From Ignavibacteria bacterium (GTDB lineage Bacteria > Bacteroidota > Ignavibacteria > UBA10030 > SZUA-254): a DNA stretch of 64,000 nucleotides. Position 1 is the first letter of the stretch; every line of letters begins with the position of its first letter. Position numbers: made by a program. This document shows, piece by piece, positions 57,001 to 60,000 of the stretch. Where the stretch lies: assembly GCA_016178595.1 (NCBI GenBank), contig JACOSY010000053.1:114-64113 (forward strand). Direction: 5' to 3'.

Positions 57001-60000
57001 CTGGCTCTTGATGTTGCGCGGCGCTGGAATCGAGCTTCGCCACCAGGTTCACAGCTCGTTGTGGGTATCGTTCTGGGATGTCGTGTTTTCAGTGTCGAGC
57101 ATACTGCTTGCAATCTTTTTTGGCGCTGCACTCGGCAACGTGGTGCGCGGCGTCCCGTTGAATAGCGATGGCTATTTCTTCGAACCGCTCTGGACCACCT
57201 TTACGGTCGTACCGGAGTCGGGCATCCTCGATTGGTTCACCGTCATTCTTGGTCTTGTTGCACTGTTCACGCTCACGTCCCACGGAGCAAATTATGTCGC
57301 TCTGAAGACGAGCGGTGAGATTCAGATGCGAGCACGGAGAGCCGCAGTCCGTTCGTGGTGGGGAGTTCTCGCTTCCTCCATTCTCGCATTTCTCTCCACA
57401 TGGGCCATCCGACCCGACATCTGGAAAAATTTTGCCGAACATCCCTGGGGATATCTCTTCCCATTAAGCGGCATTCTCGGACTCCTGGGAATGTACTTCT
57501 CTGCACTCAAGGGTCGTGATAGAACGGCATTTCTCTCTTCGTCGCTGTTCATTGCGGCAATGTTGGCAGCAACGGCCTTCGGTGTATTCCCAAATCTTCT
57601 CACAGCATCAACAGACGCATCATACTCGATAACCGTCTACAACGCAGCGGCAGCAGAGTACGGTTTAAGCGTCGGTCTCGTGTGGTGGATGTTTGGAATT
57701 GCACTCGCAATCGGATATTTTGTTTACCTGTACAGATCGTTTCGTGGGAAAGTTGCCGATGCACCCGGAGATGCCGGATACTAACCGCGCACACCACGGA
57801 CGTGATGTTGTAATCCAATTCCAACTCGTTGGATTTTATTAGCTGCTCAAAGGAATACAGATGCCGCAAACTCCCCATGTAGAAAAACATTTTACAGCAA
57901 GTGAAACGGTTCGCGACATCGTCATCGGCATGTCGGATGGATTGACTGTTCCGTTCGCACTCGCAGCCGGACTCTCCGGCGCCGTCGTCTCAAGCGGCAT
58001 CATCGTCACGGCAGGGCTTGCCGAGATTGCGGCAGGCTCCATCGCGATGGGATTGGGCGGCTATCTTGCAGGACGCAGCGACGCCGAACACTACGCGAGT
58101 GAATACGCGCGCGAGCATCGAGAAATCATCGAGAAGAACGATGCTGAAGTTGTGGAGACGGCGGAGATATTCCAGGAGTATGGTCTGACGCATGAAGAAA
58201 TCTCTCCTCTGCTCGATTCCTTTCAGAAGAATCACGAGTCGTGGGTCAACTTCATGATGCGCTTCGAGTTGGGATTGGAGAAACCGGATCCGCGGCGTGC
58301 GCTGTACAGCGGACTCACCATTGCTGCATCCTACATCGCCGGCGGACTTCTTCCGATGGGACCTTACATGATTTTCTCACACGCACAGACGGCGCTTCTC
58401 GTTTCGATTCTTATTACCTTCCTCGCGCTTATTCTCTTCGGTTACATCAAGGGACGTTTCACCGGGGCAAAACCGATTCATAGCGCGCTGCACACGCTAA
58501 CAGTGGGCGGGCTTGCCGCAGCGGCAGCGTACTTCATTGCAAGGTTGATTGCGTGAGGATTGTTTGCTCGTTCCACCGCAGAGCAACCGACACATCGACC
58601 CTCTCCCCTCGTTCCCCTCTCCCAATTTGGGAGAGGGGATGGCTCCGACGGAGTCGGAGACAGAGGAGAGGGTCAGACGCTGCACACACTCACCGTCGGC
58701 GGGCTTGCCGCAGCGGCAGCGTACTTCATTGCAAGGTTGATTGCGTGAGGATTGTTCGTCTCGTTCCCAAACTCCGTTTGGGAACGTCTTCAGATGTGCG
58801 CTCCCAAGCAGAGCTTGGGAGCGAGCTATAGTTCAACTGTCGAACAACGATGGGGCCCGTTACTTGTGCACGCTGTAGAGGAACTGGATCTGGGCCGGGG
58901 TCAAAGCCCTGCTGTAGATGCGAAGATCATCCATCGTTCCTCTGAGCGGTGTATGCTCGCTAAGATTCTCTTCCGACCAGCCAATGATCATCGGATACGA
59001 ATTGACATTGAACGATGAGTACGAATCTTCCACTTCCTCCGTCAGCACGCCGTCGGCGTAGATCTGCATGCGATGGCTTACACGGTCGACGATGAACGTG
59101 AAGAACACCCACTGGCCGACGCTGTATGAATGGTGATCGGAATCGAGCTCATGCATCCCCGATCCATCACCTGCCGATTTCCATTGCGGATACCATGTAG
59201 TGACATTCTGTTTCGAGTAGATGCTATACTCCCTGTTCTCAAAGTACCCGACGACGGGTCCACCCTTGACGACGATGTCCATGTAGTTACTCTGGATGCT
59301 ATCCACGCGGAGCCACATGCTGACCGAAAGTTGGTTCACGGGGTTGAGAGAAGGGCTGTTCAAAACAACAATATAGTTATTGAGCCCGTTGAAACGGTAG
59401 GCGCTGGCCGGGTTACCCCATTTGTCCGGCACATAGGTCGCATTATTCGCCTTGCCGTTGTTCCCATTGCCGCTCACATCCAACGTGTTCCCGTCGAATG
59501 TCATGTGCAGGACGATACCCGAGGTGATATCGCTATCATCGTGCATCGGGCTGACGAAAAATGTAATGCTGTCGATATCGCTCAGATTAAATTCGTTCAC
59601 ACCGCTGTGTGTGTGAATCCTCATGGTCTGTGCATAACAGATGGATGCACCGGCGAGCATCCAGCAAACGAGAGAAAGGGCGATTGTTTTCATAGGTGTG
59701 CGTCCCATTGTTCCAGTGACTATTTGAGGAAAAGCATTTTTTTCGAAACGACCTTCGTGCCTGCTGCGACCCGATAGATGTATAATCCGCTTGCCACACT
59801 CCGGCCCCCATCGTCTGTTCCATCCCACACTACTTCGTGGCTCCCAGCCGGTTGAACGTTCGATGCATAGTGTCTCACAAGTTGACCGACGATATTGAAG
59901 ATCGTGACTATAACTTCGGATGCGCCCGGAAGCTCGTAGCGTATGGTTGTCGTAGGATTGAAGGGGTTGGGATAATTCTGAAACAACGTAAATGTCTTGA

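What the first reader, a model, noticed from the sequence alone, without database searches (positions are those of the whole stretch)
58488..58830. Duplicated 3' end of the VIT1 transporter gene: 59-bp perfect direct repeat with a synonymous-only diverged extension, bracketing and followed by a hairpin family
The last 77 nt of the VIT1 gene (encoding TLHTLTVGGLAAAAAYFIARLIA* and beyond) recur 192 bp downstream. The distal 59 nt are identical. The proximal ~18 nt differ only at third-codon positions (acgctaacagtgggc vs acactcaccgtcggc, both encoding TLTVG), so the second copy was under coding constraint: a 62-aa ORF (58560-58748) ends with the same TM helix. Between and after the copies lie three hairpins built on TCCCAA..TTGGGA. 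Possible readings: a former alternative C-terminal exon or fusion; a small insertion (MITE-like) that captured flanking sequence; or a recombination hotspot.
Basis: seen in the sequence. Interest (0 to 1): 0.6.

Follow-up and report, generated by a model that had tools for sequence, protein, structure and literature searches.

The report
Gene-tail duplication holding a BoxC-like repeat
The end of an iron-transporter gene was duplicated in tandem by a small replication slip, and the spare non-coding copy later received a 78-base palindromic repeat of the known BoxC / triplex-motif family, so this is a genomic scar and not a new gene part or system.

Summary
The repeat is real. Segments 58486-58564 and 58678-58756 are 79 nt long, 192 nt apart, and differ at four bases, all third-codon positions. 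The last 59 nt are identical.

- Hairpins: the two after copy 2 are conserved VIT1-downstream hairpins, found directly after the single VIT1 stop codon in the two nearest relatives. The hairpin between the copies is a separate 78-nt Y-shaped element (58597-58674). It belongs to the BoxC / PIT / intrastrand-triplex-motif repeat family (Holder et al. 2015), which I found in at least 120 metagenome contigs, cyanobacterial plasmids and viral contigs.
- Extent: with that element removed, copy 2 extends upstream in register with VIT1 (20/35 matches, p = 5e-5). The whole is then a 114-nt tandem duplication bounded by the microhomology CGTT(T/C)C, whose downstream copy lies at the foot of hairpin A.
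- Coding constraint: the newly aligned upstream part differs at all codon positions, including residues invariant in VIT1. Copy 2 is therefore a decaying fragment.

The 59-nt perfect core is too long for uniform divergence (p = 5e-6) and suggests gene conversion. There is no integrase, transposase or reverse transcriptase nearby, and the 62-aa ORF has no homologue. Verdict: an ordinary scar built from known kinds; low to moderate interest.

The parts
57861..58556 (+). Intact VIT1/CCC1 Fe/Mn transporter gene (231 aa), following cydAB
   Evidence: Pfam PF01988 at E = 3e-68, profile positions 1-213 of 214. Synteny cydA-cydB-VIT1 is conserved in relatives.
58455..58568 (+). Copy 1 of the 114-nt tandem duplication unit: the last 100 coding nt of VIT1, the TGA stop and 12 nt after the stop
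   Evidence: Local alignment with copy 2 after removing 58597-58674.
58506..58564 (+). Perfect 59-nt core in copy 1, identical to 58698-58756
   Evidence: An identical run this long has P = 5e-6 under uniform divergence.
58455..58460 (+). Upstream microhomology CGTTTC at the start of the duplicated unit
   Evidence: Alignment ends. Inferred slippage site.
58569..58596 (+). Copy 2, left part. It starts with the junction microhomology CGTTCC and is a decayed VIT1 fragment (RSTAEQPTH against RFTGAKPIH)
   Evidence: Together with 58675-58677 it aligns in register with VIT1 58451-58485: 20/35 matches, permutation p = 5e-5. It shares the lineage-specific His codon CAT, seen in 1 of 120 homologues.
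58597..58674 (-). 78-nt Y-shaped BoxC / PIT / triplex-motif (TM) element inserted into copy 2. The Py-Pu-Pu motif is on the minus strand, 58639 to 58597: CCCCTCTCCC-AAATT-GGGAGAGGGG-AACGA-GGGGAGAGGG. The small hairpin is 58643-58659 and the outer stem is 58597-58609 with 58662-58674
   Evidence: Inverted repeats I2 and I3. Fold z = -5.3 as RNA and -8.0 as DNA. Same blocks as TM_ECO Table 1 in PMC4666352. The 23-mer matches exactly in viral contigs, the same architecture occurs in cyanobacterial plasmids, and at least 120 metagenome contigs match.
58675..58761 (+). Copy 2, right part, with a divergence gradient: AGA against GCG, then 10 identical nt, then 4 third-position differences, then the 59-nt perfect core (58698-58756), then a tail with one indel
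58762..58786 (+). Hairpin A (CGTTCCCAAAC-TCC-GTTTGGGAACG). Its first 6 nt, CGTTCC, are the downstream microhomology of the duplication. It is a conserved VIT1-downstream hairpin
   Evidence: Present directly after the single VIT1 stop in L083. Fold. No T-tract follows it.
58799..58823 (+). Hairpin B (CGCTCCCAAGC-AGA-GCTTGGGAGCG), a conserved VIT1-downstream hairpin
   Evidence: Orthologous in L083, with one compensatory G:C to T:A pair.
58560..58748 (+). 62-aa ORF, in frame with VIT1. It is a by-product of an in-frame duplication (114 nt) plus an in-frame insertion (78 nt), and is not a gene
   Evidence: No homologue other than itself in 5.8 billion clusters. No Pfam hit.

Best explanation
The locus records three ordinary events.

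(1) Tandem duplication. A 114-bp segment spanning the VIT1 stop codon was duplicated in tandem. The segment runs from CGTTTC at 58455 to just before CGTTCC at the foot of the first downstream hairpin. The likely cause is that the growing DNA strand stalled at hairpin A and re-annealed on the 5-of-6 microhomology 114 nt upstream. This left an intact gene (copy 1) and a redundant non-coding tail (copy 2) in front of the original downstream hairpins A and B.

(2) Element insertion. A 78-bp Y-shaped palindromic element of the BoxC / PIT / G+C-rich intrastrand-triplex-motif family inserted into the dead copy, stretching the repeat spacing from 114 to 192 bp.

(3) Gene conversion. Copy 2 decayed near the insertion, while conversion between the two copies, possible only away from the 78-bp heterology, kept a central 59-nt stretch identical.

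Shown: the repeat, its extended in-register homology, the junction microhomology, the family membership of the element, the orthology of hairpins A and B, and the non-uniform divergence. Inferred: slippage as the duplication mechanism, the order of events, and gene conversion.

Nothing here is predicted to have a function. The direct repeats simply make the 192-bp unit deletable by recombination.
For: Repeat and codon positions. Ancestral layout: the relatives L083 and L084/85 (81% protein identity) have one VIT1 end followed directly by hairpins homologous to A and B. None of the other VIT1 loci fetched has a duplicate of the gene's 3' end within its fetched flanks. Extended homology: removing exactly 58597-58674 aligns 58565-58596 plus 58675-58677 in register with VIT1 (20/35, p = 5e-5). 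The local alignment then runs 58455-58574 against 58569-58767, so the two copies overlap in CGTTCC, which is the signature of a microhomology junction. Local origin: copy 2 shares the His codon found in only 1 of 120 homologues. Element identity: it has the three blocks of TM_ECO (PMC4666352) with block 3 an exact mirror of block 2. Hairpin 1 matches exactly in 2 viral contigs. The same Y architecture occurs in Pseudanabaena and Leptolyngbya plasmids and in metagenome contigs: at least 120 contigs matched, and 51 of the 82 testable matches have the closing outer arm, 12 of them with a spacer of 9-30 nt as here. Separate events: flanking direct repeats occur in 2 of 75 family members against 4 of 228 controls. 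Mosaic divergence: the 59-nt identical run has P = 5e-6. Real sequence: the same protein pair is deposited from two MAG assemblies, and the junction sequence TTGTTTGCTCG is unique, so it cannot come from joining two haplotypes.
Against: No closer relative than 81% protein identity exists in the databases searched, so there is no true empty-site or pre-insertion allele, and the order of events is inferred. The four consecutive third-position differences are an unusually regular pattern; I explain them only loosely, as changes in the functional copy or an imported allele segment. The 31-nt upstream homology is short (61% identity). Reads were not available, and the two MAGs may come from the same study. 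Gene conversion over tracts this short is plausible but undemonstrated here. Only one TM element lies in the 64-kb window, so multi-copy status in this genome is untested.
Confidence: 0.68

Rival explanations
1. Rescue by unequal recombination between alleles. The TM element first landed in frame inside a functional VIT1 gene. An unequal crossover or illegitimate join with an intact allele, from a sister chromosome or another strain, then put a complete gene in front of the damaged 3' end.
For: The element is 78 nt (26 codons) and leaves the frame open. Four consecutive synonymous differences look like allelic divergence. The outgroup comparison suggests copy 1 carries the derived states.
Against: It needs the same microhomology junction plus an extra allele. 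The part of copy 2 upstream of the element has changes at residues invariant in VIT1 homologues aligned in the same register (F to S, G to A, S to Q), so decay must be invoked as well. The 59-nt identity still needs gene conversion.
Confidence: 0.12
2. The palindromic element itself produced or captured the flanking 79-nt repeat, as a very long target duplication or as a MITE carrying flanking sequence.
For: The element sits between the two copies.
Against: Only 2 of 75 family members have flanking direct repeats; these are the window itself and a tandem array, against 4 of 228 controls. A further 28 nt of VIT1-derived sequence lies between copy 1 and the element. The repeat ends at a microhomology unrelated to the element.
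Confidence: 0.06
3. attL/attR remnant of an integrative element that targets the 3' end of VIT1 and carries a replacement gene end (like CIME remnants of ICEs at the fda gene, which I recall from memory).
For: A duplicate at the 3' end of a gene, with a perfect core flanked by imperfect similarity on both sides.
Against: Among the ORFs of at least 150 aa between 47 and 64 kb that I scanned, none matches an integrase, transposase or relaxase domain. Only 113 nt lie between the copies, and these are VIT1-derived sequence plus a BoxC-type element. Copy 2 shares a lineage-specific codon with the resident gene. None of the other VIT1 loci fetched has a similar duplicate. Neither the repeat core nor the whole region matches phage or viral collections.
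Confidence: 0.04
4. Assembly artefact: two strain haplotypes of the VIT1 3' end stitched in tandem in a metagenome-assembled genome.
For: The source is a MAG. The Logan contig L002 stops exactly at the end of the perfect repeat, so the assembly graph branches there.
Against: The junction sequences (GGATTGTTTGCTCGTTCCACC and GGGTCAGACGCTGCAC) contain unique k-mers that no single-copy haplotype would supply. The perfect repeat (59 nt) is shorter than a typical short read (inference; read lengths were not checked). Two deposited assemblies, with contigs of 40.9 and 83.5 kb, carry the identical structure.
Confidence: 0.05
5. Functional recoding: TGA read-through, an alternative C-terminus, or a DGR-like template/variable repeat pair.
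For: The ORF is in frame with VIT1 and open for 62 codons. There are synonymous-only differences over 20 nt.
Against: The ORF has no homologue. No reverse-transcriptase domain was found in the ORFs scanned nearby. The differences are G>A, A>C, A>C and G>C, which is not adenine-specific. The upstream part is degraded. Relatives lack it.
Confidence: 0.02

Closest known systems
BoxC / PIT elements, the G+C-rich intrastrand triplex motif TM_ECO (Holder et al. 2015, NAR 43:10126, PMC4666352; BoxC was first described in E. coli in the 1990s)
   Same: It has the same three 9-10-nt blocks, CCCTCTCCC / GGGAGAGGG / GGG(A/T)GAGGG, in Py-Pu-Pu order with short loops. It lies outside coding sequence. It often occurs in palindromic or paired configurations. 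It is associated with local sequence variability.
   Different: The host is an Ignavibacteria MAG. The first loop is the sequence AATT/AAATT, so hairpin 1 is a 13-bp perfect palindrome. The third block is GGGGAGAGGG, an exact mirror of block 2. A small unrelated hairpin (CTCCGAC-GGA-GTCGGAG) and a closing outer arm make a 78-nt Y shape. Only one copy is seen in 64 kb. Here it sits inside a dead gene fragment, which gives a built-in empty-site comparison.
Microhomology-mediated tandem duplication by replication slippage at hairpins (general bacterial mutagenesis; from my own knowledge)
   Same: It is head-to-tail, short (114 bp) and bounded by a 6-nt near-identical direct repeat. One copy of that repeat is the base of a stable hairpin.
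   Different: The duplicate has persisted long enough to decay, to receive an insertion, and apparently to be partly re-homogenised.
Rickettsia palindromic elements and other MITE-like palindromes such as REP/BIME, ERIC and Correia (from my own knowledge)
   Same: It is a short palindromic repeat that can sit in frame in coding-derived sequence. It has no coding capacity and is widely dispersed.
   Different: There is no sequence similarity, no terminal inverted repeats of a transposase type, and no clear target-site duplication. No Rfam family matched.
att-site duplications made by integrative elements at the 3' ends of genes
   Same: The gene end is duplicated and the gene stays intact.
   Different: There is no recombinase and no cargo. 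The spacer is itself derived from the same gene.

Membership tests
BoxC / PIT / G+C-rich intrastrand triplex motif (TM) | Three consecutive blocks (Py-Pu-Pu, class II) with stems of 6-15 nt, at most 1 mismatch, and loops of 1-6 nt (ITxF criteria, PMC4666352) | tested here: met
   Minus strand 58639 to 58597: CCCCTCTCCC / AAATT / GGGAGAGGGG / AACGA / GGGGAGAGGG. Blocks are 10 nt with no mismatch, block 3 is the exact mirror of block 2, and both loops are 5 nt. Criteria as read.
BoxC / PIT / G+C-rich intrastrand triplex motif (TM) | Block sequences shared with described members (CCCTCTCCC, GGGAGAGGG, GGGTGAGGG or GGGAGAGGG) | tested here: met
   The blocks are identical to those in TM_ECO Table 1, for example entries 1, 17 and 21. 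The family pattern matches at least 120 metagenome contigs.
BoxC / PIT / G+C-rich intrastrand triplex motif (TM) | Non-coding (intergenic) location | tested here: met
   It lies after the VIT1 stop codon, inside a degraded gene fragment. The ORF across it has no homologue.
BoxC / PIT / G+C-rich intrastrand triplex motif (TM) | Many copies per genome | tested here: inconclusive
   There is one copy in the 64-kb window. The rest of the genome was not available.
BoxC / PIT / G+C-rich intrastrand triplex motif (TM) | Forms an intrastrand triplex as single-stranded DNA | not testable with these tools
   Only Watson-Crick folding could be computed.
Integrative element att duplication | A site-specific recombinase, or remnants of an element, between or beside the repeats | tested here: not met
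   Pfam scans of the neighbouring ORFs I tested between 46 and 62 kb found no integrase or transposase domain. The spacer is VIT1-derived sequence plus a TM element.
Diversity-generating retroelement (TR/VR pair) | A reverse transcriptase nearby, and mismatches confined to adenines of the template repeat | tested here: not met
   No reverse-transcriptase domain was found in the ORFs scanned. The mismatches are G/A, A/C, A/C and G/C, and all are synonymous.
Intrinsic (rho-independent) terminator, for hairpins A and B | A G+C-rich stem followed by a T-run | tested here: not met
   The scan of 57600-59100 found no terminator-like site. The stems are stable and conserved, but no T-tract follows. 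Any 3'-end function is inferred only.

The most novel reading that the evidence does not exclude
Copy 1 acts as a built-in empty site. It shows that a BoxC/triplex-motif element arrived as one discrete 78-bp Y-shaped unit, with at most a 2-nt target duplication. It also shows that substitutions cluster within about 25 nt on either side of the element (16 of the 17 differences), while the rest of the duplicate is identical. If that cluster is a footprint of the insertion process or of triplex-induced mutagenesis, and not of patchy gene conversion, this locus would be a natural single-event record of how these supposedly non-mobile repeats move and destabilise DNA, in a phylum where they have not been described.
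Probability: 0.15. Interest if true: 0.5.

Novelty: new member of a known kind. Interest (0 to 1): 0.27.

Why it matters
Mostly it clears up a puzzling sequence. There is no alternative exon, no mobile island and no new hairpin family here. What is present is a slippage duplication, a known type of dispersed palindromic repeat, and conserved gene-end hairpins.

Two points have minor value.
- BoxC/triplex-motif elements are shown to be abundant in environmental metagenomes and present in Ignavibacteria, with a recurrent Y-shaped architecture.
- The paralogous copy gives base-level insertion boundaries for one such element. The mobilisation mechanism of these elements is still unknown.

For annotation, the 62-aa hypothetical protein deposited for this locus (MBI1805047.1 and MBI3364992.1) should not be treated as a gene.

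Tried and rejected
- Rfam search of 58300-58950 at E up to 10: only noise, best hit Antizyme_FSE at 17.9 bits against a gathering score of 40.
- Protein search with the 62-aa ORF: only itself.
- Phage collection BLAST of the whole region: no match.
- Exact search for the repeat core in viral contigs: none.
- Full Y-shape pattern in viral contigs: none.
- VIT1 loci fetched (about 88 besides the window's own): none has a 3'-end duplicate, and only the two nearest relatives have TCCCAA hairpins.
- Sigma-70 promoter and T-tract terminator scan: nothing.
- DGR, integrative-element and assembly-chimera readings: considered and rejected for the reasons given under the rival explanations.
- Literature after 2015 on intrastrand triplex repeats or BoxC: no mobilisation mechanism found.
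Full report
**Observation**

The repeat finder reports 58486-58564 and 58678-58756 as a 79-nt direct repeat with 192-nt spacing and 95% identity.

- The four mismatches (58496, 58499, 58502, 58505) are all third-codon positions of the VIT1 frame and all synonymous.
- The last 59 nt are identical (58506-58564 = 58698-58756). They contain 48 coding nt, the TGA stop and GGATTGTT.
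- VIT1 (57861-58556) is a complete PF01988 protein (E = 3e-68).
- The three TCCCAA..TTGGGA hairpins are the only ones in the 64-kb window, against 0.06 expected by chance.

**Source and reality of the sequence**

- The window is identical over 6.7 kb to contig JACPZI010000099.1 of the Ignavibacteriae MAG GCA_016195625.1.
- The VIT1 protein and the 62-aa ORF each carry two NCBI accessions from two MAG assemblies, with contigs of 40.9 and 83.5 kb.
- A Logan contig from SRR12113410 matches perfectly and stops exactly at the last base of the perfect repeat, which is what a k=31 assembly graph does at a real repeat (the k value is from my own knowledge).
- The junction sequences on either side of the spacer are unique, so joining two single-copy haplotypes could not create them. 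I therefore regard an assembly artefact as unlikely, although I could not inspect reads.

**What relatives show**

The nearest VIT1 proteins in 5.8 billion clusters are 81% identical (P0002 and P0003). Their contigs keep the cydA-cydB-VIT1 order.

- In L083 the single VIT1 stop codon is followed directly by two hairpins homologous to those after copy 2 in the window: TTCCCAA-N7-TTGGGAA, then CTCCCAAGC-NGA-GCTTGGGAG. One stem pair has a compensatory G:C to T:A change.
- L084 and L085 have one hairpin that looks like a fusion of the two.
- Copy 2 plus hairpins A and B is therefore the ancestral gene end, and the 192-bp unit is extra.
- None of the other VIT1 loci I fetched has a duplicated 3' end within its fetched flanks.
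- Hairpins A and B are stable but have no T-tract. I call them conserved gene-end hairpins of unproven function.

**The middle hairpin is a different thing**

Positions 58597-58674 form a nested, Y-shaped palindrome made of three parts:

- an outer stem, GACCCTCTCCCCT / AGAGGAGAGGGTC;
- a 13-bp perfect hairpin, TCCCCTCTCCCAA-T-TTGGGAGAGGGGA;
- a small hairpin, CTCCGAC-GGA-GTCGGAG.

These come, with fold z-scores of -5.3 as RNA and -8.0 as DNA. Rfam has nothing for it.

The same element occurs elsewhere.

- Its central 23-mer matches exactly in two IMG/VR contigs, each time just after a stop codon.
- BLAST against plasmids finds the same architecture in several copies per replicon in Pseudanabaena and Leptolyngbya.
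- A literature search on the block sequences led to Holder et al. 2015 (PMC4666352). That paper describes the BoxC / PIT / G+C-rich intrastrand triplex motif CCCTCTCCC-loop-GGGAGAGGG-loop-GGGTGAGGG. The motif is found in more than 260 genomes, is always intergenic in E. coli, is often paired in inverted orientation, and is associated with locally elevated sequence variability.
- On the minus strand the window element reads CCCCTCTCCC-AAATT-GGGAGAGGGG-AACGA-GGGGAGAGGG, which meets that paper's search criteria, with block 3 an exact mirror of block 2.
- Of the 82 testable matches, 51 have the complementary outer arm upstream, and 12 have a 9-30-nt spacer holding a small variable hairpin, as here.
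- The window itself has only this one copy.

**The duplication is larger than reported and has its own junction**

- If exactly 58597-58674 (78 nt, 26 codons) is removed, the sequence in front of copy 2 aligns in register with VIT1 58451-58485. There are 20 matches in 35 (permutation p = 5e-5), giving RSTAEQPTHQTL against RFTGAKPIHSAL.
- A local alignment then runs from 58455 to 58574 in copy 1, and from 58569 to 58767 (minus the element) in copy 2.
- The end of copy 1 and the start of copy 2 overlap in CGTTCC, and the unit begins with CGTTTC. This is the signature of a 114-bp tandem duplication between 5-of-6 microhomologies.
- The downstream microhomology (58762-58767) is the base of hairpin A's 5' arm, so a stalled nascent strand re-annealing 114 nt upstream is a natural mechanism. 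This step is inference.
- Copy 2 shares with the resident gene a His codon present in only 1 of 120 homologues, so it is a local duplicate and not a foreign allele.

**Coding constraint**

In the newly aligned 31 nt the copies differ at 12 positions spread over all three codon positions. These change residues that are invariant among the VIT1 homologues aligned in the same register (F to S, G to A, S to Q). Copy 2 is therefore decaying.

With L083 and L084 as outgroups, copy 2 carries the likely ancestral base at three of the four synonymous sites (a weak inference at this divergence). The changes probably occurred in the functional copy, where only synonymous changes survive, or came in with an imported allele segment.

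**Mosaic divergence**

Seventeen differences fall in the 112 ungapped columns compared, yet one run of 59 columns is identical. Under uniform divergence this has P = 5e-6. Sixteen of the 17 differences lie within about 25 nt of the element.

The simplest reading is gene conversion between the tandem copies that cannot extend close to the 78-bp heterology. Mutagenesis linked to the element is an alternative I cannot exclude.

**The element did not make the repeat**

Only 2 of 75 family members have direct repeats in their flanks. These are the window itself and a tandem array (L158), against 4 of 228 control positions.

**Other readings**

- The neighbouring ORFs I scanned against Pfam between 46 and 62 kb contain no integrase, transposase or reverse-transcriptase domain.
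- The mismatch pattern is not adenine-specific.
- The 62-aa ORF has no homologue and no Pfam match. It is open and in frame with VIT1 only because both the duplication (114 nt) and the insertion (78 nt) are multiples of three.

**Verdict**

This is a confirmed observation with an ordinary explanation: a microhomology tandem duplication of a gene tail, a BoxC/triplex-motif element inserted in the spare copy, and partial homogenisation.

- The element is a new member of a known family, in a new host lineage.
- The only mildly interesting aspect is the built-in empty-site comparison for an element whose mobility mechanism is unknown.

Noticed in passing
window 31501-35679: Two tandem segments of about 2.48 kb each, 75-80% identical over their whole length. 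They look like a pair of paralogous genes side by side.
   Followed up: no
window 53270-55200: A Bro-N domain protein (53270-54148, minus strand) and an HNH endonuclease gene (about 54.7-55.1 kb, minus strand) lie between gdh and cydA. In relative L090, gdh directly abuts cydA, so this may be a small phage-derived or mobile insertion.
   Followed up: partly
L158 9470-10208 (Ga0209278_1002097): A tandem array of at least four BoxC/TM-like elements with a period of about 111 nt, plus a fifth copy 6 kb away.
   Followed up: no
L113, L142, L144, L159, L171, L172 (mostly sample Ga0210062): TM elements sit in a shared context resembling a 5' untranslated region: '...aacgataatgaaaatttttta[TM]cgtattttcaaggag' just before an ATG. 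The small inner hairpin is present in some and absent in others. This may be a conserved cis element or one gene family's leader.
   Followed up: no
L084 1640-1680, L085 1488-1530: The single VIT1-downstream hairpin in this relative looks like the 5' arm of hairpin A fused to the 3' arm of hairpin B, as if the sequence between the two similar arms had been deleted.
   Followed up: partly
window 58749-58840: Because hairpins A and B share TCCCAA/TTGGGA arms, the region can also fold as one long hairpin pairing A's 5' arm with B's 3' arm (-44.4 kcal/mol, z = -5.9).
   Followed up: no
window 6785-6889: A 51-nt unit repeated in tandem at 54-nt spacing with 71% identity, probably a coding repeat.
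   Followed up: no
L097 (Klebsiella pneumoniae plasmid, araA-araD spacer) and L096 (Cupriavidus replicon): Weak BLAST matches (81% identity, E = 0.7) to the left arm and hairpin 1 of the element occur in unannotated intergenic DNA of proteobacterial replicons, several places per record. This fits the wide spread of the family.
   Followed up: no
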